From a virus (taxonomy: Duplodnaviria; Caudoviricetes): a DNA stretch of 42,312 bases. A program made the translations under genes and the position numbers. A model generated the notes under the pieces. That model did not search any database. It saw only the letters and a list, made by a program, of their open reading frames with translations, and had not been told where the DNA came from. Numbering within the stretch: position 1 is the stretch's first letter; each line of letters opens with the position of its first letter. The stretch lies in the IMG/VR virus record IMGVR_UViG_3300032212_000038, positions 1 through 42,312 of that record; one strand, written 5' to 3'. Of the stretch, positions 17,106 through 36,872 are shown piece after piece.

Positions 17106-17121
17106 GTTAAACCTATATTTA

Positions 17122-17150
17122 GAAAAGTAGAAGTGGGGCGTCCTTGCCCC
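17122..17150 (-). terminator. Intrinsic terminator-like hairpin after the major capsid gene
   Basis: Minus strand GGGGC-AAGGAC-GCCCC followed by ACTTCTACTTTTC, 12 nt after the capsid stop. Confidence 0.6.
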
Positions 17151-17162
17151 TATATTATCCTA

Positions 17163-18101: not shown

Positions 18102-18126
18102 TTTATTTATTACCTATATTATATAA

Positions 18127-18951: not shown

Positions 18952-18976
18952 TGTTTCCGCCTTATAGGTTTGGGAA

Positions 18977-21254: not shown

Positions 21255-22531
21255 TAAATGCCCGCTATACTATCCAGTGGTTGCCATGTATCTTCTTCAA
21301 ACTCATCCATATATATCACCGAGGAGAGTTGATCTATGTACGCTAGTGCGTCCGGTAAGTCGTCATGAGACATAGGATTAGGGAAATCTAGTAATTGATC
21401 TGTAAGATTCTTAATCCAAGGCTCTCCCTCTTTGAAGAAGATCCTGCCGTGTTCAAAACGGCCTTGCAGTGCCCATGTAATTCTTTCTACTTTCTTCTTA
21501 CCGCCGTGAGTAAGTGTCTCAATGTGGAAGAAAACTCCCAACCTCCGCATTTGATCATGCAGGTAATCATTCATAGCATTCTTGAGAGACCCGCCTTCAA
21601 TACCTACGGCCCTAGGTCTGTACTTCTGAGCAGCTCTTACTATCTGTAAGCTTGCTTCCCGTGTACCCCATCTACCATGTATGATATCGTGTACAAACCA
21701 ACCAGAAGGGGACACTTCTACTACGGCTATGGCCATCTCATCTAGTCTAGATACGGCAGATTTAACCATCCCTGTACCAGCTCCGAACCCTGCGGGGTCA
21801 ACAGCTATATATATCTCTCCGGGTTCCGGGCTCTCAGCACACTCTTGGAACATAGAAGCTTTAAAGCTACCACCGCCTCCAGAGGAGAAAGAGGCCTCAA
21901 ACTCTTGTCTAAAGGCGTCTGCTGACATACGTGATCTTGCCTTCTCAATCTCTTTAGTGGAAATCATGGGATTATCCATACTGTTAAAAGAGAAAGACTC
22001 CCATTCTTCTGTATTATGGCCTTGTAACCATAGCTCATAGAAGTGGTTCTTACCGTCAGGGGTTCCTATAAACAGAGCATCCCCCTCTACGTCAGCTAAG
22101 GTAGGACTTATAATAAGATCCCATACCTCAGGCTTCATGAATGCATATTCGTCCATCACTACATAAGAGATAGCCACACCTCGTAAGGTATCAGGCCTAT
22201 CAGATCCCTTAATCTGGATCGTTCTGCCATTAATTAGTGTTAATGTTGCAGTGTTCTCATGCGCTTTCTTTATTACTTTCTGCCCTATATCCTTGAGCAG
22301 GTTCCACATAATGTCCTTACCTTGTTGGAAAGTAGGAGCTACGTACCAGACCTCTTTACCTTTAAGAGGGTACCCAAAACGATTCTCATTCTCTAGACCT
22401 TTTAGGAGTAGTGTTACTGCAGAGAGGTAACTCTTACCTCCTCGTCTCCCTGCTGCACATACTTTAAATCTAGCTTTTGAATTTAGAATCTCTAGTTGCT
22501 TCTCATGGAGGCTAAAGTCTAAATGTGACAT
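21254..22531 (-). CDS. terL: Terminase large subunit
   Basis: AGRRGGKS Walker A, VVMDE Walker B, FIGTP, FRQEFEASF, AVDPAG, HDDLPDAL. Confidence 0.95.
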   Translation of the reverse strand: MSHLDFSLHEKQLEILNSKARFKVCAAGRRGGKSYLSAVTLLLKGLENENRFGYPLKGKEVWYVAPTFQQGKDIMWNLLKDIGQKVIKKAHENTATLTLINGRTIQIKGSDRPDTLRGVAISYVVMDEYAFMKPEVWDLIISPTLADVEGDALFIGTPDGKNHFYELWLQGHNTEEWESFSFNSMDNPMISTKEIEKARSRMSADAFRQEFEASFSSGGGGSFKASMFQECAESPEPGEIYIAVDPAGFGAGTGMVKSAVSRLDEMAIAVVEVSPSGWFVHDIIHGRWGTREASLQIVRAAQKYRPRAVGIEGGSLKNAMNDYLHDQMRRLGVFFHIETLTHGGKKKVERITWALQGRFEHGRIFFKEGEPWIKNLTDQLLDFPNPMSHDDLPDALAYIDQLSSVIYMDEFEEDTWQPLDSIAGI

Positions 22532-22540
22532 CGTGTACCC

Positions 22541-22705
22541 TTATTGAACCTTACCTGTACTAGAGCCTGTTATCCTAGCAGCCATACCGTCACGGGCTTT
22601 ACCCTTCTCGATAGTGCATACCTTAGGAGGGGCTTGCTTAGAGGGCTTAGCCCCTATCTGTACCATTTTAGAGGCCTTCTGCCCCTTTGAGCTAATATCT
22701 GCCAT
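22541..22705 (-). CDS. Small basic hypothetical protein (probable start 22705)
   Basis: MADISSKGQKASK..., K-rich; starts right after the 424 aa gene stop. Confidence 0.5.
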   Translation of the reverse strand: MADISSKGQKASKMVQIGAKPSKQAPPKVCTIEKGKARDGMAARITGSSTGKVQ

Positions 22706-22706
22706 C

Positions 22707-23981
22707 TTAATGCCTTGTATTAAACTTATGATTAGGTGTGATATATCCGATCTGCTTAGTCTTATTCTTATCAAACCATGATAATCCAGTAGATGCAGCT
22801 ACCTGATAAGTAACCGTCCAAGACGCGGATCTAACGCCTGTAGCTGCCCTGATAACCTGACATTCAACCGTCTGATCCACTACTGGCATTGAGTCAAGTA
22901 TCCACTCAGAGTCAGCATTAGTTGTGAATGTAATAGCACTAGGCGTTGTTGCGTCAGGATATTCAAGCTGGTCTGTCGTTACAGGTGCTGGCGTACCTTC
23001 ATAGCCATAGGCTAAGTATTCATCGCCGCTGTACACGGGAGAGACTAAATCAATATAGCTTCGACCACTCTCAGGGGTAAATGGCACGTTAGCGCTAGTG
23101 TCGCTGCTGGCATCATCTGCCGTTACCGTGAAGCCATAACCTGTTGCGTCATACTGTAAATTAGTTCCGCTCGTAACCGTCACATCAATACTGGTGTCAG
23201 ACCAGCTTACAATAGTACAAGCCTCTGTACTAAAATCAACGCCGCCAGTACCCTGAGAAGCACCGAATCCCGTACCTGTGATTGTAACAGTCTCACCACG
23301 CGCTACGGTTGCGGGCACTGTTGAAATACTTGCACCAGAAGTCGCCTCTGCAATCTCGAAGGCTAGACCGTACACCTGGCGATACCCGAATGAAGCGCTT
23401 TCAAGTGTCTGCGTTGTATCTTCTGACGCTTGGTAGAAACCAGCTAAACTGAAAGTAGGGCTTGCATCTTCCACTAATGAATCAAGTATTAACGTGTAAC
23501 CGGCTGGCGTAGTGAATGAACCTGTATTAAAAACCATACCGCCAAAATTCAATGCCATGTTTGTAGCACTAGCAAAAGCAGACATCGTTGTAAATGCGGC
23601 GGGTGAGCTTGGGTTATTTATGTTGATTGCTTGAGTTTGTACAAATACTGTATCGACTGTGCTGGCCGTAGATGCACCAGCTAACTGCATGACATTGGCT
23701 TGCCATGTCTGGGAGGCTGCATAATTAACAGTGACCTGACCAGAGCCGGGACTTGCACCTACACGCCATGCGTAAACATGAAGCACACCAGATTCGGCAA
23801 TCTTTGTGAAAGTGGGCGAGCCTGACCAGCTGCCTGTAACACTTGACGGGTCTGTTACTGATGCAGATAGGATAGAGACAACAATTACATCGTTTTCAGC
23901 AGGGGTAAAAGCATCGCCCATCGCCGCCGATGTAGAATAACTGGCATCGCCTGAGCCGCGTTCTGTTACAGTGAATGCCAT
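22707..23981 (-). CDS. Virion-associated beta-rich protein with an IPT/TIG (Ig-like) domain
   Basis: GETVTITGTGFGASQGTG.V......IVSWSDTSI.VTV IPT/TIG signature; S/T/A-rich. Confidence 0.75.
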   Translation of the reverse strand: MAFTVTERGSGDASYSTSAAMGDAFTPAENDVIVVSILSASVTDPSSVTGSWSGSPTFTKIAESGVLHVYAWRVGASPGSGQVTVNYAASQTWQANVMQLAGASTASTVDTVFVQTQAININNPSSPAAFTTMSAFASATNMALNFGGMVFNTGSFTTPAGYTLILDSLVEDASPTFSLAGFYQASEDTTQTLESASFGYRQVYGLAFEIAEATSGASISTVPATVARGETVTITGTGFGASQGTGGVDFSTEACTIVSWSDTSIDVTVTSGTNLQYDATGYGFTVTADDASSDTSANVPFTPESGRSYIDLVSPVYSGDEYLAYGYEGTPAPVTTDQLEYPDATTPSAITFTTNADSEWILDSMPVVDQTVECQVIRAATGVRSASWTVTYQVAASTGLSWFDKNKTKQIGYITPNHKFNTRH

Positions 23982-24484
23982 AAGGCATCATCCTCTTGGT
24001 AATATTCTTTCAAATCATTATAACGATAATCGTTAGTAGGTAAATGTGTAAAACTGTTAGCCCAAGGTAATCTGCCCGGATTATGTTTAGACCAGTTCTC
24101 TCTCACACTTTCTGGCGTGAACTTATAAACATGAGTGTATATATGATCACCGTCTAATTTAACTTGATCGCTTTGTGGTAGCCAGTGTCTAGCCTCTGGA
24201 TGGTCATCATTAGTCAAAATAAAATCCACGAAAGACTCATAATCATCTGGAATCTCTTTAGAATTAGCATTATTCCTGCCTTCTACCTTCAACCAGTGAT
24301 ACATAGAGTAAGCTGATACAACCCGCTCACTCCATTCACGTATCCATAACACCCTTACAGGTACATCAATGATCTGTTCGGAGGTGTAAATATCACCATT
24401 ACGAATAGCATTTCTGAATGAAGTTGATCCGACCTTCGGTAGACAGCTTGTTGCAAATGTTCGTTCTTTATTACAAGTCCACAT
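23966..24484 (-). CDS. Sulfotransferase (Sulfotransfer_2 / carbohydrate sulfotransferase-like)
   Basis: LPKVGSTSF (5'-PSB loop), IREWSERVVSAY (3'-PB motif), F.DFI and HWLPQ. Confidence 0.75.
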   Translation of the reverse strand: MWTCNKERTFATSCLPKVGSTSFRNAIRNGDIYTSEQIIDVPVRVLWIREWSERVVSAYSMYHWLKVEGRNNANSKEIPDDYESFVDFILTNDDHPEARHWLPQSDQVKLDGDHIYTHVYKFTPESVRENWSKHNPGRLPWANSFTHLPTNDYRYNDLKEYYQEDDALWHSL

Positions 24485-26034
24485 TATGCACCGGCCGAAT
24501 ACGAACCTGTCAGCCCGATAACTTCCGAGCCTGTTTCATACGGCCCTGCATCAGTTGCACCGCCAGGCATTAAATTAATTGCCGCCGAACCTGTTTTATT
24601 TGTCCATGTTGTTCCGGGAGTGTCGAATAAATCAGCTAATGCATCAGTGACAGAGTTTGTGTCAGGGTTATCAACCTGCAATGATACGGTACTAGAGCCT
24701 GCAATAGTCTCAGCCTGCCATGCTGCGAGATTTGCGATGTTATCCTCTGTTGTATCGAATATGTCAAGGTTTACAAAATAAGTGCCGCTGTTTATTTGCA
24801 GCACATTGTAATCAGACTCAGTAAGCTGACCTACAACACCCGCTTGATAGACATTGTAATCACCTTCAATACTTAGAAAACTATTACAGTTAGCTGCAAT
24901 GTTTCCGTAGACTTCAATATCGTTCATAGCGGCTGCATGAATTGCGGTTGATACCGTACCCGCACCAGCGCCATATAAAACATTGTGCTCAATGCGTAGT
25001 CGAGTACCTTGATTGTTGCCTTCTCGCAACTCAGGACATGCTATGCAGCTATCGAGGCCATCGCCGCCTCCGACACTTCGAGTTGTTTGTAATACATTAT
25101 GGTGAATGTATTGTAATCCAGAATTAGGTGTGCCGATTGTCTGTGTTTGCATAAAGAATGGAATACCCGCTGTAATATCACAGTGGCGAACTTCCCAGCC
25201 ATCAACCACGCTTGACCCGTCAGTGTCATACCAAAAAGATTTCTGGAATAATCCCCCTGTATGTGCAGACAACTCGCTGTTTTCTAACAGGCAATTAGAT
25301 GATCCATAAGTCTGTATTGCATGTACGTCTGTCACCGAACCAACAACCTTGACATCTTTTACGATAGTATCTTCTACACCAAATAAACGAAGTGCTGCCG
25401 TGTTCTCACCGGGCGTTCGTATTGTAGGTGTGTCGAAGTAGCAATTTTCAATCCTTATACCCACAGATTTTGATGTTATATCTATTTGATGGCTTGCGCT
25501 ATCAGGTGCATTGATGTGACCCTGCTCTGCATTTGTAAAGCGCAGCCCGTAAAACTGCCAATAGTCTTGAAAGTTTAAATCAAAGTTACCGTAAGTACCT
25601 GCCGAATCAATAGTCACACTACCCTCATCACCAGACAAGGTTCTGAATGTGATAGGCTCAGCCAAAGTGCCAGAAGTACCGGCCTGCAAGTTTGCAAAAC
25701 CAGAATCATTCATTACATTTGCACCATTAACTGTATATGTCGTACCAGTACCAACGGAATCGACAAGGTTAATAGTATCGCCCGCCGTCACTGTATCAAT
25801 GGCTTTTTGTGGCGTTAAAAACGCGCCGCCTGCGCTATTAGTCGTGCCTGCATTACCATCATTACCGTCTGCCCTAACATAATACTGTGTGCCAGAGCCA
25901 ACACTAAAGGCAGGCGTAGCGCCAAACCATGTAAAACCAGCAGGACTGAACACGCCGAGCGGATCAAGACCACGCACCTTACCGTCAGTGTTATTGGCTG
26001 TGTAAGTTGACAAATCTACTGTGAAGTTAGGCAT
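24484..26034 (-). CDS. Right-handed beta-helix (pectin lyase-like) protein, putative depolymerase/adhesin
   Basis: YYV..DGNDGNAGT....FLTPQKAID....GDTI start; repeated IENC/IHHN/IEHN/VYGN rungs; SDYN. Confidence 0.8.
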   Translation of the reverse strand: MPNFTVDLSTYTANNTDGKVRGLDPLGVFSPAGFTWFGATPAFSVGSGTQYYVRADGNDGNAGTTNSAGGAFLTPQKAIDTVTAGDTINLVDSVGTGTTYTVNGANVMNDSGFANLQAGTSGTLAEPITFRTLSGDEGSVTIDSAGTYGNFDLNFQDYWQFYGLRFTNAEQGHINAPDSASHQIDITSKSVGIRIENCYFDTPTIRTPGENTAALRLFGVEDTIVKDVKVVGSVTDVHAIQTYGSSNCLLENSELSAHTGGLFQKSFWYDTDGSSVVDGWEVRHCDITAGIPFFMQTQTIGTPNSGLQYIHHNVLQTTRSVGGGDGLDSCIACPELREGNNQGTRLRIEHNVLYGAGAGTVSTAIHAAAMNDIEVYGNIAANCNSFLSIEGDYNVYQAGVVGQLTESDYNVLQINSGTYFVNLDIFDTTEDNIANLAAWQAETIAGSSTVSLQVDNPDTNSVTDALADLFDTPGTTWTNKTGSAAINLMPGGATDAGPYETGSEVIGLTGSYSAGA

Positions 26035-26045
26035 CTATAGTAGTC

Positions 26046-26375
26046 TTATTTATAGAAAGTTGCAGTTACAATACAGTTTGCTGTAGCTGATACTACAGAG
26101 ATAGTAGCTACGCCCTTAATATTACGTGCTGTAGGGTTCATCTCAGAAGCTGTACCGTCAGTGACATCTGCACTAGGGACAGCAGCAGTGCCTGTGTATC
26201 GAGCATAGAAGTCATTATCCGCTGAGAATACTACAAAATTAGCTCCTGCGGGGACTGTGAAAGATTCTGCTGTACCACCTGTACCTAGGATACGTGTATA
26301 CACTGAGTCATCTGGGGAAGGGAGGTGTAGGCTATGTTGACCGTTCTTATCTGATTCAAATATTAGACTTTTCAT
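26046..26375 (-). CDS. Small beta-rich hypothetical (possible virion) protein
   Basis: 109 aa, T/A/V-rich; TAATG coupling to the upstream gene. Confidence 0.65.
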   Translation of the reverse strand: MKSLIFESDKNGQHSLHLPSPDDSVYTRILGTGGTAESFTVPAGANFVVFSADNDFYARYTGTAAVPSADVTDGTASEMNPTARNIKGVATISVVSATANCIVTATFYK

Positions 26376-26719
26376 TAATCTTCTACCGTATAGTCGCCAT
26401 CCACTACTTCTTCATCTCTATCTGATAAGTGTGGGTTAGCTGTTAGTTTGGCTATATTGATAGTGATACCACCATCACCTAGTTTATCTGTATTAAACTC
26501 TACTGCTTTAGTGACAGGGATGAGCCTATCTAGAACCATCTTAGCTGCAGTGAGATCTCCCTCAATTGCCTTATCTATAACTGTCTGAGCTATAGCATTA
26601 AGGTTATCTAGCATGAGGTTAGTAGTCTTCTCACGCATTGCATCCTGCAATAAAGTCTTCTTATTCTTAGACCCTACTGGACGACCTCTTTTCTTCTTGG
26701 TAGTAGGGAGGTCAGACAC
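26375..26719 (-). CDS. terS: Probable terminase small subunit
   Basis: KKKRGRPVGSKNK AT-hook-like motif; VIDKAIEGDLTAAKMVLDRLIP; near the start of the structural arm. Confidence 0.65.
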   Translation of the reverse strand: MSDLPTTKKKRGRPVGSKNKKTLLQDAMREKTTNLMLDNLNAIAQTVIDKAIEGDLTAAKMVLDRLIPVTKAVEFNTDKLGDGGITINIAKLTANPHLSDRDEEVVDGDYTVED

Positions 26720-26867
26720 TACTTAAGATACCTTCAGCTTCTTTCTTAAATGAAGCATAGTCACCGTCTGCTACTCTAGCGTACTCTAGTTTTTTACCAG
26801 ATGAGTAGGTATAGGCAACATAGACGTCACCATAGCCTTCTCTATCTTCAATGCAGAATTCTATCAT
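26712..26867 (-). CDS. Hypothetical protein, 51 aa; not in the ORF track
   Basis: Hand translation MIEFCIEDREGYGDVYVAYTYSSGKKLEYARVADGDYASFKKEAEGILSSV; overlaps both neighbours. Confidence 0.65.
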   Translation of the reverse strand: MIEFCIEDREGYGDVYVAYTYSSGKKLEYARVADGDYASFKKEAEGILSSV

Positions 26868-26989
26868 TTAATACCTGATTTACGCATAGCGTCCTTAATC
26901 TTCTGTTTACGGCCCTTAAGCTTCTTACCAGCCTTAGCTGCCATTCCTGTACCTAGAGAAGAGACAGGTAAACGTCCTACTTTTTTCAT
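26864..26989 (-). CDS. Very basic 41 aa peptide, first gene of the structural arm; not in the ORF track
   Basis: MKKVGRLPVSSLGTGMAAKAGKKLKGRKQKIKDAMRKSGIK; GAGGTGG RBS; ATGA overlap. Confidence 0.65.
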   Translation of the reverse strand: MKKVGRLPVSSLGTGMAAKAGKKLKGRKQKIKDAMRKSGIK

Positions 26990-27125
26990 ACACCACCTCG
27001 TATATTATTTATATCTACCTATACTAGGCAGGTTCTATTATATTCTTTTTAATATTATTTATATTATAATAACCCCTACTTCCCTACCTACTCCAAATCT
27101 CTATAAAAATAAATAATATACTCTC

Positions 27126-27173
27126 TTAGACAACAAAAAAAGCAAAAAGTTCAATTTATTTTTAAATTATTTT
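27126..27173 (-). promoter_or_regulatory. sigmaE/AlgU-type promoter P1 with UP element, facing the structural arm
   Basis: Minus strand AAAATAATTTAAAAATAAATT-GAACTT-N16-TCTAA. Confidence 0.75.
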
Positions 27174-27300
27174 GCTTCACCTACGGTTAAGACTACCAGA
27201 AGGAACAGAAGGACAGTAGGTAAGAGGGTTTGGATGGGTAGGAATAACAGATTTCTTTAAGCATTAAATAATAACAGAGATCTTTCAAGATTATCAATGA

Positions 27301-27313
27301 AATCAATAAGTTA
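27301..27313 (+). promoter_or_regulatory. IHF consensus site
   Basis: AATCAATAAGTTA matches WATCAANNNNTTR. Confidence 0.6.
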
Positions 27314-27457
27314 CCTACCCTATCTATATAGTCTATATAGTCTTATTTAATACTATTTATTCCTATCCCCCTCCTTTTTATATTCCAAAATCACGTTTTT
27401 TGTGGCTGAGGGTCATAATCAATAAAATCAAAGAAATCCTAGGCCCTCCCCCCTATC

Positions 27458-27476
27458 GATAATGATTCTCATTCGC
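27458..27476. promoter_or_regulatory. Fur box-like site
   Basis: GATAATGATTCTCATTCGC; 15/19 identity to GATAATGATAATCATTATC. Confidence 0.6.
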
Positions 27477-27491
27477 ATTTATCGCAGAATA

Positions 27492-27507
27492 TGGCACAAT
27501 ACTTGCA
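27492..27507 (+). promoter_or_regulatory. sigma54 -24/-12 element
   Basis: TGGCAC-AATAC-TTGCA, a perfect consensus match. Confidence 0.7.
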
Positions 27508-27513
27508 TAATAT

Positions 27514-27529
27514 AGCAAAAACCATGCCA
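27514..27529 (-). promoter_or_regulatory. sigma54 -24/-12 element (leftward)
   Basis: Minus strand TGGCAT-GGTTT-TTGCT. Confidence 0.65.
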
Positions 27530-27599
27530 GAGAGAGTGTGATTGTCACCATCAATGATACCCCAGACTATAATAGATTCTCTCAATCAATACCCCTGAG

Positions 27600-27615
27600 T
27601 GGCATATACATTGCA
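27600..27615 (+). promoter_or_regulatory. sigma54 -24/-12 element
   Basis: TGGCAT-ATACA-TTGCA. Confidence 0.65.
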
Positions 27616-27621
27616 TAAAGT

Positions 27622-27804
27622 GTCAGATTCTTTTACACCTCAAACCCTGATTCCCTCTATATATCGCTTGAATCGATAGTAATAAACGTCAGGTTATTTT
27701 ACACAATGAACGGTACTAAAACACTGACGGGTGGCTTAAGTTATTGATTCTATTGTAAGACATACGTCTGACTAGGCGATTCTAGGTGTCAGAATACTTT
27801 ACAC
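27622..27804. repeat. Three copies of GTCAG-N6-TTACAC (27622-27638, 27688-27704, 27788-27804), candidate enhancer (UAS) sites
   Basis: GTCAGattcttTTACAC, GTCAGgttattTTACAC, GTCAGaatactTTACAC. Confidence 0.7.
27737..27749 (-). promoter_or_regulatory. IHF consensus site
   Basis: Minus strand AATCAATAACTTA. Confidence 0.6.
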
Positions 27805-27867
27805 TATTGGCTTATTTCTCCCTCTGGCATGGTATTATCAGGCTCTCTGAATAAATAATTCTATATA

Positions 27868-27903
27868 AATCAATGACTTACAAAAACTGGCACGGCGAAT
27901 GCA
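27868..27903 (+). promoter_or_regulatory. IHF site plus sigma54 promoter, predicted start about 27914, facing the early arm
   Basis: AATCAATGACTTA (27868-27880) then TGGCAC-GGCGA-ATGCA (27888-27903). Confidence 0.7.
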
Positions 27904-27911
27904 TTATCTTT

Positions 27912-28395
27912 CGGCAAGACCAGCGGGTTTGTCGTGGCTTTCATAGCTGCCCCTATGCGCTGGCTAGGTTATGGGCTTTTAGTACCTTCTATGGGTATTA
28001 TTAACCACGTGTGACATACGGCTCTATTTACGGGTGTATGGTGTAGCGTGGAGGTGCCAGCATAACTGAAACGGGTAGCGGGTACAGTGGCGCACCTGTA
28101 AGCTAATCTGGCTTAGCGGAACTGATAGGCATAACATAAGTCCTAGGGCAGCCATGCTGTCAGGTGTATTGTTCAATACATCTCTCAATAATTACATACC
28201 ACTAGCAGAGAAGGGATATAGGTTTATCTTAATAGGCGATTATCCGAACACAGCGAATATAACGGCTTACGTGTTCCGATTACCTATTGTTTATTACTAT
28301 TCGCTTATATCCTTATGTGACAGGTAGGGTTTTCCCTTTTCTGTGAATGTGATAACTAGTAGGTATTCAATAGGGAGTATCTACCAATTATCACA
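27912..28395 (+). ncRNA. Candidate large structured RNA or structured early leader
   Basis: No convincing ORF; many nested helices with G-U pairs (see findings); begins at the predicted sigma54 start site. Confidence 0.6.
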
Positions 28396-28417
28396 AACAA
28401 AAAGTGAGGTATTAATC

Positions 28418-28897
28418 ATGCAACAAACAACTACTAAAAACTTCAAATCTCAACTGAATGGTATTATCAAATCAGCTAAGACTCAACGGGATAACGTGCA
28501 AGCTATCATTGTATTCGGCCTGAATCACTATAAAGATCACGGTGACGCAAGTTATCTATCACAGGTTTTAAGTGCCGCAATCGGTGTCAAAAGCCTTCCT
28601 ACGGTAACCTTGAAGGAATACATTAAGGCTCATGCGAATCTGTTATGGAAGAAAGGTAAGGATGGTAAATTCCAGTTTAAGAAAGACGGCACTGACGTCA
28701 AGGTTACTATGCCAACTGTTTCATGGTATGAGTGGGACGGTGGTAAGCATAACAAGGTAACCGTTGATATGGATGTTATGGCGCAAACTAAGGCGCTGCT
28801 TAAGCGTATCCAATCTGGCCTTAAGGATCATAAGGTTAAGGATGAACAAGCGGCTAAGAACGTAGAAGCGGCACTCAAGGTAGTACTGGAGGCTTAA
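28418..28897 (+). CDS. First early protein, hypothetical (probable start 28418, MQQTTTK)
   Basis: GTGAGG RBS before ATG 28418; the upstream in-frame part lies in a long hairpin. Confidence 0.8.
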   Translation: MQQTTTKNFKSQLNGIIKSAKTQRDNVQAIIVFGLNHYKDHGDASYLSQVLSAAIGVKSLPTVTLKEYIKAHANLLWKKGKDGKFQFKKDGTDVKVTMPTVSWYEWDGGKHNKVTVDMDVMAQTKALLKRIQSGLKDHKVKDEQAAKNVEAALKVVLEA

Positions 28898-29130
28898 TGT
28901 CTTCCTTAAAGGCAGGCGATAGGGTAGTTGCTATAGGTGGAACTGTCGCGGATATATTCTATCTGGAGAGTAAAGAGGAGGCTAAACGTCTCCGTTACCT
29001 CTATCCAGACGACTGTCATGTATCTCGTGGCCCTGACCATATTGGTAAGCACGGTCATAAGCTGGTACGTTCTCGTCTACAGCCTAAAGGTACTATGAAT
29101 AGTAGTAGCGAGGTGACAAGTCATGGGTAA
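28897..29130 (+). CDS. Early hypothetical protein
   Basis: GGAGG RBS; TAATG coupling. Confidence 0.65.
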   Translation: MSSLKAGDRVVAIGGTVADIFYLESKEEAKRLRYLYPDDCHVSRGPDHIGKHGHKLVRSRLQPKGTMNSSSEVTSHG

Positions 29131-29230
29131 GTTAAGCTTTACAGACTTCTCAAAAGTAGTAATCGGTACTATTGTATTTACTATAGTAGTAGTTTACCTA
29201 ACAGCCCTAATCATGGGCTATCCTATCTAG
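29123..29230 (+). CDS. 35 aa single-TM peptide; not in the ORF track
   Basis: MGKLSFTDFSKVVIGTIVFTIVVVYLTALIMGYPI; GAGGTG RBS; fills the gap. Confidence 0.6.
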   Translation: MGKLSFTDFSKVVIGTIVFTIVVVYLTALIMGYPI

Positions 29231-29239
29231 GAGAATAAA

Positions 29240-29446
29240 ATGGGTACTCTATACCAGACACATGTCAAAGGTACAGATGATTATGGTAATACCTTTACTT
29301 ATACGAAAGGTTCTCTTACTAGTAGTCGTACAACGGCTGTTAATCGTCTTAAAAATAATAGACTTAAGGGGTATGTTCAGGATATTAACTCGAAAAAGGT
29401 AATATTCCAGAACATGCGTAATGATCTACAAGCGGTGGGGTTATAG
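29240..29446 (+). CDS. Early hypothetical protein
   Basis: AGGAG RBS; 68 aa. Confidence 0.7.
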   Translation: MGTLYQTHVKGTDDYGNTFTYTKGSLTSSRTTAVNRLKNNRLKGYVQDINSKKVIFQNMRNDLQAVGL

Positions 29447-29448
29447 TT

Positions 29449-29574
29449 ATGGTTGAAGAACTGAAAGCAATACTCTCCTTATTAGGAGATATGTCAGAGA
29501 TAGGCGGTTGGGTACTTGCAGGGTTTATACTCTTCAAGGTAACCTTGGAGCAGCTTTTCTTAAGGCTGCTGTAG
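29449..29574 (+). CDS. 41 aa hydrophobic peptide; not in the ORF track
   Basis: MVEELKAILSLLGDMSEIGGWVLAGFILFKVTLEQLFLRLL; fills the gap. Confidence 0.55.
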   Translation: MVEELKAILSLLGDMSEIGGWVLAGFILFKVTLEQLFLRLL

Positions 29575-29608
29575 AAGAAAAAATTGAAAGAGAGAGGGGT
29601 TATTAATT

Positions 29609-29821
29609 ATGAGAGGCTTCAAAGCAAAAACATTACGTCGGTTTGCACGTAGTCGTACAGTGGGTAAAAAGGACGTAGAGTACCGTGAGAAGATCACCCC
29701 TAAGACGGTTACAATGTTTAACACAGACGGCACTACCCGTCAGACAGTCGTGCATAAAAGCACTCGTTATATGGTTCACGACTGTACCCGTAAATATTAC
29801 AAACTGTTAAAAGCTTTATAG
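29609..29821 (+). CDS. Basic early hypothetical protein
   Basis: GAGGGG RBS; K/R-rich, 70 aa. Confidence 0.7.
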   Translation: MRGFKAKTLRRFARSRTVGKKDVEYREKITPKTVTMFNTDGTTRQTVVHKSTRYMVHDCTRKYYKLLKAL

Positions 29822-29831
29822 GAGAGCGATC

Positions 29832-30614
29832 ATGGGAGTAAAGTATGATATTGTAAGTACTGGAGCAGGCGGTACAGAGCATGTACTGCCGAGAGCAGGT
29901 GTCTGTTTTTCCTACCTTAAGTACCAATATGGTAGTGAGCTTGACCAGTTACAGATGAGTTTTAAAGAGATCAGGATGCACTTTATCCGTAACCTTAAAC
30001 GGCCTGAGATTAAAACTATCATGTTAAGGGTGTTAGAGGCGTTCGGTATGGATGAATTTGTTACCTTCAACGAGGAAGGACTAGCAGTAGTATCTGACCG
30101 TCGGCCTAAGGTTGTATTTAAGACTTTATCGATGATGCGTGTATTTGATGTCTACCAATGCGACAGGCTCTTGGTTGTTGAGAGATTGGAAGGTATGGGT
30201 TTTGATACTAAGGTTGCATTCCTCCTAGCTCATTATTTACGTATTAAGAAGGACGCCACACTCGATCGTTCTTTTGACCTCAGTACTTGCGGAGAACATG
30301 GGTGGATAGCTGACGCAAGAGACATGACTATTGCAGGTATACTAGGTGTCGCTTTACATGCTAAGGATGTTTTAACGAAGACAGACCCATGTAGTACTAT
30401 GTCTTTTTCCTATATAGGGGTCGAATCCCTATTCAGAGCGTTTAATGGTACGGGGCGTAAACTACACTGTATTTTAGCGGAGGCTTCCGTCCAATCTCAC
30501 GATGATTGGGGGCCTAGGTATGTTAAAGATAAGGATCTATTCCCTATCCTTTACTCTGTGCAAGAGAAGTATGACGAAGAGGTTAAGCGCCTTAAGGGGG
30601 TAGCCGGTGAGTAA
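29832..30614 (+). CDS. Hypothetical protein
   Basis: AGGAG RBS; 260 aa; precedes the amidoligase cluster. Confidence 0.75.
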   Translation: MGVKYDIVSTGAGGTEHVLPRAGVCFSYLKYQYGSELDQLQMSFKEIRMHFIRNLKRPEIKTIMLRVLEAFGMDEFVTFNEEGLAVVSDRRPKVVFKTLSMMRVFDVYQCDRLLVVERLEGMGFDTKVAFLLAHYLRIKKDATLDRSFDLSTCGEHGWIADARDMTIAGILGVALHAKDVLTKTDPCSTMSFSYIGVESLFRAFNGTGRKLHCILAEASVQSHDDWGPRYVKDKDLFPILYSVQEKYDEEVKRLKGVAGE

Positions 30615-31284
30615 GAGAGACTATACGTTCTTAGTACTTGGAGGTAACCCATACTACCAGCCTTTCTTAGAGTTAGGGTCTGTGGTAGGAGGTTACCCTA
30701 ATATGACTAAGGCTGACTGTATTGTATTCACAGGGGGTAGCGATGTTGACCCTTCTCTATATGGTGAGAGTAAGACAACTAAGGTCTTAGTCACAGATTT
30801 AGACAGAGATCATAAAGAGATGGCTGTTTTTAAATACGCAGTCTCTCATGGTATCCCTATGATTGGTATCTGTCGAGGCGCTCAGTTCTTAAACGTGATG
30901 AACGGTGGTAAGTTAGTACAACATGCTAACGGTCATAGCGTTGACCATAAGATCAGGATACCTACCAGTGTAGATTACCCTGTTAAGGAGTTCGTGGTAA
31001 CATCTACGCATCATCAACTGATAGTGCCTAATATAGAGCGTGGTCATCAACTCTTAGGATATACAGAGGGCATCGCTACTCATTTAGAGGGTGTCCCTTT
31101 CAAGGAGTATACTAAATACAGTAAGAAATACAGTGCTGGTGAGACTATAGCTAAGGAGGCAGAAGTTCTGTGGTATGAGACTACAGGTTCTTTATGTGTC
31201 CAGTATCACCCCGAACAGATGAAGAAGGGTGAGGACGGCTATCAGTACTTTAAACACCTAGTAGAGGAGTATGTAATGTTATGA
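30607..31284 (+). CDS. Class I glutamine amidotransferase-like / peptidase C26 (gamma-glutamyl hydrolase, PuuD-like)
   Basis: FTGGSDVDPSLYG, GICRGAQFLNV (catalytic Cys), STHHQ, VQYHPE. Confidence 0.9.
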   Translation: MSKRDYTFLVLGGNPYYQPFLELGSVVGGYPNMTKADCIVFTGGSDVDPSLYGESKTTKVLVTDLDRDHKEMAVFKYAVSHGIPMIGICRGAQFLNVMNGGKLVQHANGHSVDHKIRIPTSVDYPVKEFVVTSTHHQLIVPNIERGHQLLGYTEGIATHLEGVPFKEYTKYSKKYSAGETIAKEAEVLWYETTGSLCVQYHPEQMKKGEDGYQYFKHLVEEYVML

Positions 31285-31466
31285 AATCTACATATATAGT
31301 ATGCTCTTTCTTAGCGCAGTTTACACTATTAGTACTGGCTGTATTCAGTCCTATATATATCACACCCGGTTGGTATGTATGGACTGTTATATCTTTAATA
31401 CTATTAGCTCTCTCCGGCGGTTCATTGAACTATCAGGTGAGCTTATGGGAACTTGACGAGGAGTAA
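31281..31466 (+). CDS. Small two-TM membrane protein
   Basis: Two hydrophobic segments; ATGA overlap; GAGGAG RBS. Confidence 0.65.
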   Translation: MKSTYIVCSFLAQFTLLVLAVFSPIYITPGWYVWTVISLILLALSGGSLNYQVSLWELDEE

Positions 31467-32247
31467 CTTTATGCTTGGTACAGATACAGAGGTATTTTTA
31501 AAGAATAAAGCAGGGGACTATATCTCCTCTATTGGTCTTATTGGTGGCTCTAAGGATAAGCCTTTAGAGGTTGAGTGTGGTAACTTACAAGAGGATAATG
31601 TATTAGCTGAGTTTGCCATACCTCCTGCTAGTAATAAGGAAGAGTTTATAGGATATATTAATAAGACTTTCGGCATCCTTGAGGCTAAGGTTAAGGAGTA
31701 CGATCTTGAGATTGAAATTAAACCTTCTGCCGTATTCCCTTATGATCAGCTTGAGCACCCTTTGGCTCAGGAGTTTGGATGTGACCCTGACTATAATGCC
31801 TACACTTTAGATGTGAATGAGTCGCCTAAGCATGAGAATGTAGGCGCCCTACGTTCTTGTGGAGGCCACGTACATGTATCCTCCGAGGCTATCGCTAAGG
31901 ATGAGAATAGTCGAGCAGAGTTCGTACGTATCCTTGACTTAGTACTAGGTGTACCATCTGTGGTCATGGACACAGATAAAGAACGTCGTAAGTTATACGG
32001 TAAGGCAGGTGCATATCGTAATAAAGATTACGGTATCGAGTATCGTACCTTATCTAACTTCTGGATTCAAACACAAGAGCATATGTCTTGGTTGTGGGAT
32101 CAAGTCAAGAAAGCTGAGAAGATGTTTGATGAAGGGTTCCGTATTAACTTTGACATAGGCAGTCGTGTTATCGAGTGTATTAATAACGGAGACACTGATA
32201 CCGCTGATGCATTGATACATGAATTTAATCTGGAGGTAGTGTCATGA
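31453..32247 (+). CDS. phiEco32-like COOH-NH2 ligase type 2
   Basis: LGTDTEVFL, QEDNVLAEF, FGCDPDYNAY, GGHVH, RRKLYGKAG, YGIEYRTLSNFW. Confidence 0.88.
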   Translation: MTRSNFMLGTDTEVFLKNKAGDYISSIGLIGGSKDKPLEVECGNLQEDNVLAEFAIPPASNKEEFIGYINKTFGILEAKVKEYDLEIEIKPSAVFPYDQLEHPLAQEFGCDPDYNAYTLDVNESPKHENVGALRSCGGHVHVSSEAIAKDENSRAEFVRILDLVLGVPSVVMDTDKERRKLYGKAGAYRNKDYGIEYRTLSNFWIQTQEHMSWLWDQVKKAEKMFDEGFRINFDIGSRVIECINNGDTDTADALIHEFNLEVVS

Positions 32248-32903
32248 ATTATGGGGAGTATACTATTGACGACCTTAATAGGTACTTACGTAACGGTTTT
32301 GCATTCCTAGATAATGAGCCTGTACTTATACGGAGGGTACGTCAGGGTAGAGACAGTAGAGATAAGGTGGTACCTAAAGTAGGTTACCATATGAAGATGA
32401 GTACTAGTGACGATTGGAACACGGACGACGAACACTCTATACCGCTGGACGACTTGAATATATGTAGTGCTGACATAGGCTGCTACAACTATAAAGGTGG
32501 CGTGGTTTATGTTTCACGTGGAGCTGAGAGACAGTGGAACTTTGCGATAAATAACTCATCCTATTCTGTTACTCAATGTAATAGAGACAACCACCGATCC
32601 CGACTAAACCCTCATATGAGTAGCCCGTCCCTACTTAAGGCTATTATCTCTCCAGAATACTTCGGTATTGATACTGCTATTAATAAGTTAAGAACAGGCA
32701 GCCGTATGACTGTGGCACTTGATAAGGACTTCTGGATTGGTGTAGACCGCTACTCAGAGGATATTATCCTTGGTTATCAGTCAGGTAGAGTCATAGGTTA
32801 TATTAATAGTGATGACATTGTTACAGTCTTTACAGGTTTCGAGTTCCTAAGTGAAAAAGTAGCTAAACTAACACCTATAGGGGGTTTTGAAGATGCAGCT
32901 TAA
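32244..32903 (+). CDS. Hypothetical protein within the amidoligase cluster
   Basis: GGAGG RBS; ATGA overlap; 219 aa. Confidence 0.75.
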   Translation: MNYGEYTIDDLNRYLRNGFAFLDNEPVLIRRVRQGRDSRDKVVPKVGYHMKMSTSDDWNTDDEHSIPLDDLNICSADIGCYNYKGGVVYVSRGAERQWNFAINNSSYSVTQCNRDNHRSRLNPHMSSPSLLKAIISPEYFGIDTAINKLRTGSRMTVALDKDFWIGVDRYSEDIILGYQSGRVIGYINSDDIVTVFTGFEFLSEKVAKLTPIGGFEDAA

Positions 32904-34044
32904 TAAAATAACTGGTATCTCTCCAGATAACAGAACATTCCTACCACACTCTTGTTTTGTATTACCTTATACATTAATAGGTGTAGAGGTAGAGACAGAG
33001 GGTGTGTACTATGACCGCCTAAGTAATCCTACTTACTGGGATGTTAAAGAGGACGGATCATTACGTAGTGGTGCTGAGTTCGTACTAGCTAATCCGCTAG
33101 TGGGTAAAGACTTACACGATTCTCTTGAAATACTGGACGCTTTCTGTTCCAATAACCCTGAGATACACTATACTGTTCGTACCTCAGTCCATGTACATTT
33201 AGATGTTCGTGACTTAGAAGCAGAGCAACTGATGAACCTTCTCGGACTGTACTTGCTCTTTGAGAAAGCTATCTATCGTTATCATAACCATAAGTACAAC
33301 AGAGAGAATAATATCTATTGCTTACCTTTCTTCAATACCAGTAGGCATATTAATGACCTTTCTGTGCTGTCTTATCTAGGAGACCCGTCGATTAGCCAAC
33401 GTGATTTATCTACTACTCTCCGCCACTCACTGTCTCGATTAAATAAATATTATGGCCTGAACGTAGCCTCTTTGTTCCGCTTCGGCTCTTTAGAGTTTAG
33501 ACACATGGAGGGTACTCATAATAAAAATGAGATTATTGAGTGGGTTAATATTATTATGTCTCTTAAGAAGTATGCTTGTTCCTTACAAGGCAACCCTTAC
33601 GAGATGCTACTAGGTGTAAGTAATTCTGGTTACACAACACTTCTCTCTAAGGTATTCTCCGCTGACCTGATAAGTAAGCTGTTCGATTACGGGGATGCAG
33701 AAGAGGACATATATGCTGGTATGCAGCTTTTCCAAGATATTATCCACGGAAATAAGCTCACTACTAGTGCAAGTGTATGGCGCGGAAGGGTAGATCAGAA
33801 GAACCCTGAGTATAAAGAGTCTTCATTATTCAAGAAGAGTGCTAAAGGTAATAAGAAGACTGTAGGTAAGAGTAGAGTTAAGAAGGCTATCAGACGTCGC
33901 CGCCGACTAGATACGCTTAACCCTCCAGAGGATACAGCAGTACCTAGTCCTACTGCTGTTGCTTGGGAAGGCACAGCAGTAGGTACTGATTCAGCTTATA
34001 CAGATCTACAACGAGTACTTAACAATATAACAGGAGAAGATTAA
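32887..34044 (+). CDS. Putative amidoligase (glutamine synthetase/GCS-like fold)
   Basis: IGVEVETE, DGSLR...EFV, SVHVHLD, YGLN...GSLEFRHMEGT. Confidence 0.85.
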   Translation: MKMQLNKITGISPDNRTFLPHSCFVLPYTLIGVEVETEGVYYDRLSNPTYWDVKEDGSLRSGAEFVLANPLVGKDLHDSLEILDAFCSNNPEIHYTVRTSVHVHLDVRDLEAEQLMNLLGLYLLFEKAIYRYHNHKYNRENNIYCLPFFNTSRHINDLSVLSYLGDPSISQRDLSTTLRHSLSRLNKYYGLNVASLFRFGSLEFRHMEGTHNKNEIIEWVNIIMSLKKYACSLQGNPYEMLLGVSNSGYTTLLSKVFSADLISKLFDYGDAEEDIYAGMQLFQDIIHGNKLTTSASVWRGRVDQKNPEYKESSLFKKSAKGNKKTVGKSRVKKAIRRRRRLDTLNPPEDTAVPSPTAVAWEGTAVGTDSAYTDLQRVLNNITGED

Positions 34045-34045
34045 A

Positions 34046-35542
34046 ATGTGTGGAATCGTAGGAGTTATCAGTGACAGTGCAGGTATACAGTCACAGGATA
34101 AAAAGAAGTTTTTAATACAGGCATTACAGGTGGATTCTTTACGAGGAGAGGACTCTACTGGCCTCTTCACAGTTAATGATAAGGGCCACTGTGATATGTT
34201 TAAATCTAACATGACTGGCTGGGATTTTGTACAACATGCGAAAACTCAGAAGATCTTATCCTATGTATACGATAAGCGAGTAATGATCGGTCATAATCGA
34301 TGGGCTACACGTGGGGCTATCAACGCTACCAATGCCCACCCTTTCCATCACGGTAAGATTGTCGGGGTACATAACGGATCTCTTAACAATCATAGAAACT
34401 TACTACCTGACGGTGAGATGTTCGATGTAGATAGTGATGCGGTATTCCATTCGATTAATGAGATCGGTGTCGAGGAGACTGTGACCAAAATGAATGGGGC
34501 TTATGCTATTATCTATTTTGATACAGAAGCTAAGACCCTTAATCTGTTTCGTAATGAAGAACGTCCACTCTTTACAGCTATTGTAACTCATGCAAACAAG
34601 AACGACAACACTATGCTAGTAGCTAGTGAGGCTGGTATGATTGAGTGGTTAGCGGAACGGAACGGACTAACTATCGACACACCTGTATTATTAAAACCTC
34701 ATACATTACTAAGTATTAGTACGGATAAACTTACTGACTTTACTGTATCTGATCTAGGTAAGTATGAGCCTCCTAAGAGTGAGAAAAGTACTGTACGGAA
34801 TTTTGGTGACTACCGTAATACGGACTCTCATGAAACACCTAGTCGTAATAAGAGGGTATCTAAACGCTCAAAAAAGATACTAAACAAGGTAGGTCTAAAG
34901 ATCGGAGACACGTTAGAACTCTATAATACTGGTGCAGCGACCTATAATCATAAAGATTCATTCGGTTATATCGAAGGATCTATGACAGTAGATCCTTGGT
35001 GTGACATCGTAGTTCATAATGTACCTAGGAGTATCATTGAGACAGTTGTTAGAGAAGACATGCCTCTTATCTTCGGTAAGATTAAGATTGCAGTAGACCG
35101 GTCGAACTACCCTATCATCCACTTAGATCCTAAAACTCTTAGCTATAACCTTGATGGAAAGAACATACCACTTAGTGAGCCAAGTAGTAAAGAGGAAGTC
35201 AAGAAAGAGACTAAGAAAGTACTGACTACGGAGGACGTAAGAAGTGCGGTAAAGGATGTACTTCGTGATGTCAATAAGAAGAAGGACAGCACGGAGGGAA
35301 CCCCAGAAAAAAAGCCCATACTGTGTCTCCCGGCTGGGAAGAACAATTCAAATTCCTGCAAAGGCCCGAGAGGCTTCATTAGTCTATACGATTTTCAGAA
35401 GTATGTTCAAGGTGGGTGTGATAACTGCGGTGCTAATATTGACCATAATGATCATGATAATATACGTTGGACTAATAACGGCTTACCTCTTTGCCCTTCT
35501 TGTTCAGAAGAGTTACAAGACTGGGGTTGCGCAGGCTGTTAA
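34046..35542 (+). CDS. Class II (Ntn) glutamine amidotransferase with C-terminal Zn ribbon
   Basis: MCGIVG start, RG.DSTG, GHNRWATRG, NAHPF, HNG, DVDSD; C-terminal CDNC...CPSC. Confidence 0.9.
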   Translation: MCGIVGVISDSAGIQSQDKKKFLIQALQVDSLRGEDSTGLFTVNDKGHCDMFKSNMTGWDFVQHAKTQKILSYVYDKRVMIGHNRWATRGAINATNAHPFHHGKIVGVHNGSLNNHRNLLPDGEMFDVDSDAVFHSINEIGVEETVTKMNGAYAIIYFDTEAKTLNLFRNEERPLFTAIVTHANKNDNTMLVASEAGMIEWLAERNGLTIDTPVLLKPHTLLSISTDKLTDFTVSDLGKYEPPKSEKSTVRNFGDYRNTDSHETPSRNKRVSKRSKKILNKVGLKIGDTLELYNTGAATYNHKDSFGYIEGSMTVDPWCDIVVHNVPRSIIETVVREDMPLIFGKIKIAVDRSNYPIIHLDPKTLSYNLDGKNIPLSEPSSKEEVKKETKKVLTTEDVRSAVKDVLRDVNKKKDSTEGTPEKKPILCLPAGKNNSNSCKGPRGFISLYDFQKYVQGGCDNCGANIDHNDHDNIRWTNNGLPLCPSCSEELQDWGCAGC

Positions 35543-35560
35543 TAAATAGGAGAAGGCAAT

Positions 35561-36331
35561 ATGAAGTTTAAGATATACCCTTATAAGATAGGGAGTGCTA
35601 GTGCGAAAAGTCTAGCAGACGGACTAGACGCTAAGAGAGTACGTGTTGATGGTCAGTACGTACCCTACCGTAACCATGTAGTAATTAACTGGGGTAGTGG
35701 TAAAGAGCCTGAATGGCTACACCGAAATACTACCCAGTACAGGTACCTCAACCGTCATGAAGAAGTTCTACGTGTTGGTAATAAACTCTTATGTTTTAAG
35801 GACTTACAGAGGTGGGGGGTATCTATTCCCCGCTTCACAGAGAGTAAGGAAGAGGCTTCAAGCTGGGGTGTCCCTATAGTCATACGTCATAAGCTACGAG
35901 GACATAGTGGTGATGGTGCTGTTTATACAGAAGATGTAGCTAACCTACCTGACGCTCCTCTATATGTAGAGTATAAGAAGAAGGTAAGAGAATTTCGAGT
36001 CCATGTATTCCGAGAACGTGTTATAGATGTACAGGAGAAGAAGAAACGAAGAGAGGTAGGGAATGATGAAGTTGATTATAAAATACGTAATAAGTATACC
36101 GGTTGGGTTTATTGTAGGGACATTGATGCTCCTCCTCCAAGTATCAGCGATGATTCCATACTTGCTGTATCATGTTGTGGATTGGATTTCGGAGCAGTTG
36201 ATGTCATATGGAATAATCACGAGCAGAAGTCATATATTCTGGAGATCAATACCGCACCGGGACTTGAAGGACAGACACTAACTAATTATGTAGAAGCTTT
36301 TAAGCAGTATGCAGTAGGAGATGAGTTATGA
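35561..36331 (+). CDS. ATP-grasp peptide ligase (RimK/glutathione synthetase-like)
   Basis: INWG, NKL, REFRVHVF, LDFGAVDVIW, LEINTAPGL. Confidence 0.88.
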   Translation: MKFKIYPYKIGSASAKSLADGLDAKRVRVDGQYVPYRNHVVINWGSGKEPEWLHRNTTQYRYLNRHEEVLRVGNKLLCFKDLQRWGVSIPRFTESKEEASSWGVPIVIRHKLRGHSGDGAVYTEDVANLPDAPLYVEYKKKVREFRVHVFRERVIDVQEKKKRREVGNDEVDYKIRNKYTGWVYCRDIDAPPPSISDDSILAVSCCGLDFGAVDVIWNNHEQKSYILEINTAPGLEGQTLTNYVEAFKQYAVGDEL

Positions 36332-36831: not shown

Positions 36832-36872
36832 TTTTAAAATAGGTGGAACTTATGGAAAATAATATTGTCCAA
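36825..36872 (+). promoter_or_regulatory. sigmaE/AlgU-type promoter P2 with UP element, upstream of the primase/polymerase module
   Basis: AAAATAATTTTAAAATAGGTG-GAACTT-N16-TCCAA. Confidence 0.72.

What the first reader, a model, noticed from the sequence alone, without database searches (positions are those of the whole stretch)
27912..28395. About 500-nt highly structured RNA starting at the predicted sigma54 start site
Seen helices: 5' hairpin 27912-27934; long-range stem CATAGCTGCCC (27942-27952)/GGGCAGCCATG (28146-28156), enclosing hairpins TAGTACC/GGTATTA, CCACG/CGTGG with CATAC/GTATG, TACAG/CTGTA and GCTAA/TTAGC. A second domain is closed by CTGTCA (28157-28162)/TGACAG (28318-28323) and contains the 28162-28183 hairpin and a long nested arm (28212-28222/28304-28314, 28231-28241/28278-28288, 28246-28251/28271-28276). 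Then come AGGG/CCCT and a ~21 bp hairpin 28348-28395. Mismatches are mostly G-U on the + strand, which points to RNA-level structure. I cannot match it to tRNA, tmRNA, intron or riboswitch cores. Inference: a novel ncRNA (sponge, anti-defence decoy or antiterminator) or an RNase III-processed leader, and probably the first transcript made.
Basis: partly seen in the sequence, partly recalled or inferred. Interest (0 to 1): 0.82.

Follow-up and report, generated by a model that had tools for sequence, protein, structure and literature searches.

The report
Cut-off leader RNA of podophage
This is a 500-base gene-free, partly folded stretch between a phage's predicted early promoter and its first early gene, ending in a hairpin that is likely cut by the host enzyme RNase III, and one related phage carries a predicted self-cutting ribozyme in the same slot; the rest changes too fast between relatives to count as a conserved large RNA family.

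Summary
The window is a Zobellviridae-like podophage. 27914-28417 is the untranslated leader between a sigma54-type promoter (with an IHF-like site and three upstream repeats) and gene 1. No Rfam match. Relatives also have long gene-free leaders, but the body barely aligns even with a phage whose gene 1 is 82% identical. The last hairpin is the conserved part: a two-stem hairpin with a U-G pair at the RNase III distal-box position in 6 of 12 lineages. One relative (L062) has a type III hammerhead there instead. One 12-nt-loop stem-loop covaries in three phages. Best reading: a T7-like, RNase III-severed early leader whose body is a fast-turnover structured spacer; a trans-acting decoy RNA is possible but unshown. 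No RNA data. The scan noted similar leaders before on other phage DNA.

The parts
27621..27637 (+). Upstream repeat 1, TGT-N11-ACA spacing; likely enhancer site for a host sigma54 activator
   Evidence: this spacing is named as a PilR-site hallmark in PMC6058289 (passage); activator identity inferred
27687..27703 (+). Upstream repeat 2 (one mismatch)
27787..27803 (+). Upstream repeat 3
27492..27507 (+). Further sigma54-type motif; possible upstream early promoter
27600..27615 (+). Further sigma54-type motif; possible upstream early promoter
27867..27880 (.). IHF-like site between the repeats and the promoter
   Evidence: in 6 of 7 sigma54-type leaders (window included) within 320 nt, 5 of 7 within 60 nt; consensus recalled
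27888..27903 (+). Sigma54-type -24/-12 promoter; predicted +1 about 27914
   Evidence: same motif at the matching place in L056 and ahead of the leader in L001, L057, L062, L077, L078, L180; consensus recalled
27914..28417 (+). Untranslated early leader, about 504 nt
   Evidence: no ORF of 60 aa or more other than an in-frame upstream extension of gene 1; short ORFs of 21-57 aa overlap it; fold
27912..27934 (+). 5' hairpin at the predicted start
27942..28156 (+). Domain 1, multibranch, no better than shuffles
   Evidence: z -1.2
27980..28000 (+). Hairpin shared with L056, one U-A to C-G compensatory change
   Evidence: alignment read by eye; pair probability 0.97
28126..28145 (+). Stem-loop with a conserved 12-nt loop, shared with L056 and L077; covarying 4-bp stem
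   Evidence: 12 of 12 cells paired, 2 of 4 pairs compensatory; three sequences only
28157..28323 (+). Domain 2, long irregular duplex arm plus a 9-bp hairpin
   Evidence: z -4.3; not found in relatives
28314..28326 (+). 13-nt block shared with the L077 leader
28326..28337 (+). 4-bp mini-hairpin followed by a short U run; not called as a terminator
28348..28395 (+). Two-stem hairpin (8 bp, 3x3 loop, 10 bp); predicted RNase III site, cut predicted near 28387/28388
   Evidence: determinants from PMC1540722 (passages); cut position inferred
28406..28409 (+). Shine-Dalgarno-like GAGG of gene 1
28418..28897 (+). Gene 1, 159 aa, conserved phage protein of unknown function (RIO-1 gp1 and ICP2 gp27 family)
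   Evidence: 398 clusters at E up to 0.001; confident model, no fold match

Best explanation
The stretch is a gene-free, partly folded leader between a predicted host sigma54 promoter and gene 1, and its last hairpin is likely a host RNase III site that would cut the leader off the early message. Likely sequence of events: after the genome end enters the cell, a host enhancer-binding protein on the three upstream repeats, looped by IHF, would open the promoter at about 27914 (motifs shown, activity inferred). The polymerase would run through about 500 untranslated bases whose folding likely shields them from Rho and decay (inferred). RNase III would then cut the 3' side of the internal loop near 28387, giving gene 1 mRNA a fixed 5' end about 30 nt before its start codon and releasing a leader of about 475 nt with a hairpin at each end (inferred by analogy with T7). 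The body turns over quickly between phages (shown), so it likely acts mainly as a structured spacer, with one small conserved stem-loop as a likely protein-binding site.
For: Same layout in relatives: gene-free stretch, then a strong hairpin 12-47 nt before gene 1 in most. U-G as the 8th pair above the internal loop in 6 of 12 lineages with a long enough stem, against 6 of 131 at other positions (binomial 7e-6). A U-G at distal-box position 2 is a stringent E. coli RNase III determinant (PMC1540722). In the window the distal box is the canonical U-A/U-G, proximal position 2 is U-A and position 4 is an A-C mismatch, so neither G-C antideterminant is present. The upper stems covary in the Vibrio and Melvirus groups. 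L062 has a type III hammerhead at 2354-2412, ending 15 nt before gene 1: 1 of 19 leaders, 0 of 2000 shuffles, Rfam Hammerhead_3 E 4e-4. This suggests the slot is a cutting site. T7 early RNA is processed this way (PMC3867540, PMC8708148, passages). The body aligns poorly: window against L056 scores 191 against 163+-10 for shuffles while gene 1 is 78% identical in DNA; window against L077 is at shuffle level.
Against: No RNA evidence: cutting, start site and transcript are all predicted. Proximal-box positions 1 and 3 are not canonical in the window (A-U and G-C). Six of 12 lineages lack U-G at the 8th pair, and 2 of 12 strong hairpins from coding controls also had it. The position was first noticed in the data and lineages are related, so the P value is optimistic. 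PMC3867540 states that the distal box has no conserved sequence across substrates. The hammerhead score (27.2 bits) is below Rfam's gathering score (48.5) and was missed in the 23-kb scan. A plain spacer does not explain the conserved 12-nt loop or why leaders stay 420-770 nt long, when 18 of 32 other phage IHF-plus-sigma54 sites lead to an ORF within 60 nt.
Confidence: 0.58

Rival explanations
1. The released leader is the product: a stable trans-acting RNA, made at the start of infection, that soaks up a host defence nuclease, toxin or RNA-binding protein. Fast turnover would reflect an arms race, and each lineage would carry its own payload module.
For: A hairpin at each end would stabilise it. 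Lineages keep a cutter by two unrelated means. Lineage-specific conserved blocks exist: the 12-nt loop in three phages and a 19-nt block in Melvirus. In L056 and L077 that loop can also pair with a segment 3-4 nt downstream, a compact H-type pseudoknot (read by eye), a topology I recall from type III antitoxin RNAs. Domain 2 is a long duplex arm.
Against: The pseudoknot partner is absent in the window. No repeats of the module, no Rfam hit, no further members of model R1 at E below 0.01 in 33 sources. The body is only modestly structured family-wide: z at or below -2 in 6 of 17 leaders.
Confidence: 0.2
2. The leader is a cis-acting antiterminator (put-like or nut/boxA-like) that makes host polymerase processive through the roughly 21-kb early-middle gene block of a phage without its own RNA polymerase.
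For: No RNA polymerase among 52 proteins scanned. Right position. BoxA-like sequences occur in the leaders of ICP2 and Vibrio phages 172P1 and 1.208.B (consensus recalled). A short stem with a conserved loop resembles a boxB-type protein site.
Against: No boxA-like core in the window's leader. Only one terminator-like site on the + strand of 26700-29900, at chance level. No known RNA-binding fold found for gene 1 (inconclusive).
Confidence: 0.14
3. Apart from the last hairpin the folding is incidental: the stretch is a DNA spacer near the genome end, and the palindromes are chance or DNA-level sites.
For: Domain 1 z -1.2; no strand preference for the body; several named helices disfavoured; body not alignable.
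Against: Domain 2 z -4.3; 15 of 17 leader bodies fold better than their shuffle mean; compensatory changes in two modules; 8 G-U against 2 A-C.
Confidence: 0.08

Closest known systems
Bacteriophage T7 early leader and its RNase III sites (R1.1 as the model substrate)
   Same: Host-polymerase early transcript from the genome end; gene-free leader; two-stem hairpin with an internal loop shortly before a ribosome-binding site; U-A/U-G distal box in the matching register.
   Different: Sigma54-type promoter with IHF-like site and upstream repeats rather than sigma70 promoters; no phage RNA polymerase; the leader is about 500 nt and partly folded; proximal-box positions 1 and 3 differ. T7's leader layout is recalled; R1.1 determinants were read in passages.
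Type III hammerhead ribozyme (Rfam RF00008)
   Same: Found in relative L062 in the slot of the last hairpin.
   Different: Absent from the window: no core on either strand of the whole window.
5'UTR-derived phage ncRNA candidates of Pseudomonas phages (PMC10914365)
   Same: Untranslated RNAs from phage leaders; YuA in that study also has a sigma54-like promoter.
   Different: Those are under 250 nt and ascribed mostly to premature termination; the two LUZ24 candidates lie ahead of gp14 and gp62, not gene 1. No terminator was called here.
Large ornate RNAs of phages and bacteria (ROOL, GOLLD, OLE, HEARO)
   Same: Similar length; gene-free phage location.
   Different: No Rfam match at E up to 10, none in 21 related loci at E up to 1, and no end-to-end conservation among relatives.

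Membership tests
T7-type RNase III processing site | About two helical turns with an internal loop at the cut | tested here: met
   8 bp + 3x3 loop + 10 bp, pair probability 0.94-1.0
T7-type RNase III processing site | Distal box U-A then U-G | tested here: met
   pairs 9 and 8 above the loop; register derived from the numbering in PMC1540722 passages, figure not seen
T7-type RNase III processing site | No G-C antideterminant at proximal positions 2 and 4 | tested here: met
   U-A and an A-C mismatch
T7-type RNase III processing site | Preferred G-C at proximal position 1 and A-U at position 3 | tested here: not met
   A-U and G-C in the window; these are E. coli preferences and the host is unknown
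T7-type RNase III processing site | Cleavage by RNase III | not testable with these tools
   no RNA run holds the stretch
Sigma54 promoter | GG-N10-GC -24/-12 motif | tested here: met
   conserved in place in L056
Sigma54 promoter | Upstream activator sites and IHF site | tested here: met
   (the repeat pattern was taken from the repeats themselves)
Sigma54 promoter | Activator-dependent start near +1 | not testable with these tools
   needs start-site mapping
Any Rfam 15 family (ROOL, GOLLD, OLE, HEARO, riboswitches, introns, tmRNA) | Covariance-model match | tested here: not met
Hammerhead ribozyme (window) | Conserved core with three helices | tested here: not met
   L062 served as a positive case
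HDV-like / theta ribozyme | Nested double pseudoknot | tested here: inconclusive
   own descriptor found none in 22 leaders but had no positive control
boxA-type antiterminator leader | boxA core | tested here: not met
   absent in the window, present in L003, L004, L010, L011; consensus recalled
Conserved large ncRNA family | End-to-end alignability with covariation among relatives | tested here: not met
   blastn shows only short blocks
Zobellviridae | Podovirus structural block opposite a T7-like replication block, no RNA polymerase, gene-free zone between | tested here: met
   all seven gene 1 records opened, plus three, are classed Zobellviridae; no phylogeny was run

The most novel reading that the evidence does not exclude
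Zobellviridae-like phages fire a host sigma54 promoter at entry to make a 400-770 nt folded RNA, cut it free with RNase III or a hammerhead, and use it as a rapidly re-tooled decoy against host defences. The leader slot would be an unrecognised RNA payload bay, with the 12-nt-loop (pseudoknot-capable) module as this clade's bait.
Probability: 0.17. Interest if true: 0.78.

Novelty: new variant of a known kind. Interest (0 to 1): 0.42.

Why it matters
If right, a whole podophage family severs a long folded leader from its first message, using RNase III in most members and a hammerhead in at least one. That swap suggests a concrete job for hammerheads in phage DNA, whose role I recall as unclear. 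It also shows a lytic phage apparently driving early genes from a host sigma54 promoter and late genes from a sigmaE-type promoter. It is directly testable in the cultured, non-pathogen pair RIO-1 and Pseudoalteromonas marina. It is not evidence for a new ROOL-like RNA class.

Tried and rejected
Rfam and ARAGORN: nothing in the window; only tRNAs and chance hits in 21 related loci. A HEARO-like look of the Melvirus leaders, recalled by eye, got no Rfam support. A 17-nt pattern shared with L001 gave 41 viral loci; by eye all but L001's own contig were chance. The 6-mer AGCGGG occurs in 7 of 15 leaders against 1.8 expected, but 9 of 100 shuffle sets give some GC-rich 6-mer as often, so I do not count it. 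A long-range helix 27964/28146 that seemed to covary was no better than shuffles (325, 237 and 52 of 500) and was dropped. No antisense match of the leader within its own genome better than E 1. blastn of the window, L056 and L077 leaders against cultured phages found no RNA homologue. Twelve loci fetched through the COOH-NH2 ligase held no gene 1 homologue. Of 80 terminase loci only L077 held one; L078 has a different first gene. The genome-contig scan found none. The Melvirus 19-mer gave RIO-1 itself and one chance hit. Expression: no RNA holder listed; the one DNA run may be the source and showed no variants and no clear terminus. Gene 1 structure: pLDDT 95.7 but no Foldseek match at E 0.001 and only helical-hairpin matches at Z under 7. 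Literature: ten searches found no description of this leader. The RIO-1 genome paper (recalled) did not appear and was not read. In PMC10690425, 3 of 6 listed supplementary files were not searched and three more were too large, so the module could be in that catalogue.

Full report
Context. The window is a complete 42.3-kb virus record. PHROGs place portal, terminase, capsid and tail genes on the minus strand (7049-26719) and an amidoligase cluster, primase/helicase, DNA polymerase and ribonucleotide reductase on the plus strand; none of 52 proteins scanned is an RNA polymerase. The first plus-strand gene after the gap (28418-28897) has homologues in 23 phage records, including RIO-1, HP1, ICP2 and marine Vibrio phages; the ten records opened are classed Zobellviridae. 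In RIO-1 this gene is gene 1, 1.16 kb from the left terminal repeat, so the finding likely lies near the genome end (inference).

The observation. The signal is uneven: domain 1 z -1.2, domain 2 z -4.3, body without the last hairpin z -2.1. No tRNA, tmRNA or Rfam family matches.

The promoter. Three sigma54-type motifs lie in the gap, against 0.06 expected in the whole window. The one at 27888-27903 has an IHF-like site 20 nt upstream and three 17-bp repeats 100-270 nt upstream. The repeats have TGT-N11-ACA spacing, which PMC6058289 (passage; printed there as TGTN11AGA) calls a hallmark of PilR sites; a PilR-type host activator is my inference. Six of 7 sigma54-type leaders have an IHF-like site. 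The predicted +1, about 27914, coincides with the 5' hairpin. The cultured Melvirus, Vibrio and ICP2 relatives have sigma70-type motifs at the head of the leader instead (read by eye; annotated for ICP2). The sigma54, IHF, sigmaE and boxA consensus motifs are recalled.

Relatives. I assembled leaders from gene 1 homologues, terminase loci (L077, L078) and a promoter pattern (L180, gene 1 confirmed). Leader starts were set from promoter motifs; those of L058 and L064 were arbitrary, and L010 and L011 ran 40 nt into the next gene. Lengths are 420-770 nt. Whole-leader z values run from about -0.5 to -5 (part's output was cut). Bodies alone are better than the shuffle mean in 15 of 17 but reach -2 in only 6 of 17, with no clear strand preference. 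The closest relative, L056 (same assembly as the window's record; gene 1 82% identical in protein, 78% in DNA), aligns over the body at 191 against 163+-10 for shuffles; L077 aligns at shuffle level. This is not one conserved large RNA. Shared modules are few: a hairpin at 27980-28000 (with L056, one compensatory change), a stem-loop at 28126-28145 with a 12-nt loop (with L056 and L077; 12 of 12 cells paired, 2 of 4 pairs compensatory, 23 of 500 shuffles as good) and a 13-nt block (with L077). A model of the stem-loop found no fourth member at E below 0.01 in 33 sources.

The last hairpin. Most leaders end in a strong hairpin 12-47 nt before gene 1, usually two stems around an internal loop. 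PMC1540722 (passages) defines an 11-bp helix with a distal box U-A/U-G, the U-G being stringent, and G-C antideterminants at proximal positions 2 and 4. From its numbering, the U-G is the 8th pair above a mismatched proximal position 4. The window has exactly U-G at 8 and U-A at 9, U-A at proximal 2 and an A-C mismatch at proximal 4; proximal 1 and 3 are not the preferred pairs. Of 15 lineages examined, 2 gave no stem of 7 bp under the procedure (L060, L064) and 1 had only 7 pairs; of the other 12, 6 have U-G at 8, against 6 of 131 elsewhere. Against this: 2 of 12 strong coding hairpins (from 50 control windows) also had it, the position was noticed in the data first, and reviews say RNase III sites lack a strong consensus (PMC3867540, PMC8708148, passages). 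The upper stems covary within the Vibrio and Melvirus groups. L062, left out of that count, has a type III hammerhead in the slot: 1 of 19 leaders, 0 of 2000 shuffles, Rfam E 4e-4 on a 191-nt stretch but below the gathering score. Two unrelated cutters in one slot is the strongest sign that the slot is for severing the leader.

Mechanism. Shown: motifs, gene-free leader, folding statistics, rapid divergence, hairpin conservation, hammerhead match. Inferred: transcription from 27914, RNase III cleavage near 28387, release of a leader of about 475 nt with hairpins at both ends (single-strand cuts leave protective 3' hairpins, PMC1540722), and a spacer role for the body. I put this at 0.58, a trans-acting decoy at 0.2, a cis antiterminator at 0.14 and incidental folding at 0.08. 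There are no RNA data, and gene 1's confident model has no informative fold match.

Novelty. RNase III-processed early leaders are textbook for T7. What I did not find in print (ten searches, listed under Tried and rejected; the RIO-1 paper unread; most of the PMC10690425 catalogue unsearchable) is the family-wide long folded leader in Zobellviridae-like phages, its sigma54 layout, the RNase III/hammerhead swap and the 12-nt-loop module. Papers seen: passages of PMC1540722, PMC3867540, PMC8708148, PMC9960094, PMC6058289 and PMC10914365 (plus supplement searches and part 14); supplement list and a partial search of PMC10690425. Verdict: new variant of a known kind, interest 0.42.

Noticed in passing
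window 27126-27152, minus strand: A sigmaE/AlgU-type promoter motif (GAACTT-N16-TCTAA, consensus recalled) heads the late structural block; 1 match against 0.08 expected. It is also in relatives L001, L056, L077, L078, L081 and in L162, L165, L187. The phage may use sigma54 for early and sigmaE for late genes.
   Followed up: partly
L062 2354-2412, + strand: Type III hammerhead ribozyme ending 15 nt before gene 1.
   Followed up: yes
L056 2257-2288 and L077 7835-7866 (minus strand): The conserved 12-nt loop can pair with a segment 3-4 nt downstream, forming a compact H-type pseudoknot; the partner is missing in the window.
   Followed up: partly
L003 2786-2830, L010 1600-1660, L011 1620-1660: BoxA-like sequences near the 5' end of the leaders of Vibrio phage 172P1 and ICP2; possible rrn-type antitermination.
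   Followed up: no
L007 870-935, L008 2250-2312, L009: Melvirus leaders keep two conserved blocks, one of 19 nt, while the flanks diverge: a clade-specific RNA core.
   Followed up: partly
window 27385-27475: Blocks shared by eye with L077 and L078 (a C-rich run followed by a conserved A/T-rich segment), about where the genome end would fall by analogy with RIO-1; possible packaging signal.
   Followed up: no
window 27514-27529, minus strand: A sigma54-type motif facing the 27492 motif, and part of a 19-nt inverted repeat with 27818-27836.
   Followed up: no
L001 leader 2228-2250 against L069, L070, L074 (L070 9069-9091): A 23-nt segment matches, antisense and with one mismatch, a gene of another phage group (E 0.004); borderline after multiple testing.
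   Followed up: no
L168 and L162, downstream of the pattern match: Gene-free folded stretches after an IHF-plus-sigma54 site in records without a detected gene 1 homologue; L168 has a T-loop-like hairpin near its 3' end.
   Followed up: partly
window 39827-41803: DNA polymerase is in two ORFs (155 aa and 447 aa) separated by about 165 nt.
   Followed up: no
window 11112-11351, minus strand: The most strongly folding 240-nt window of the genome (z -5.6, 10 shuffles) lies inside the 941-aa ORF.
   Followed up: no
window 30607-37229: Amidoligase / glutamine amidotransferase / ATP-grasp / gamma-glutamyl cyclotransferase cluster, shared with many podophages.
   Followed up: no
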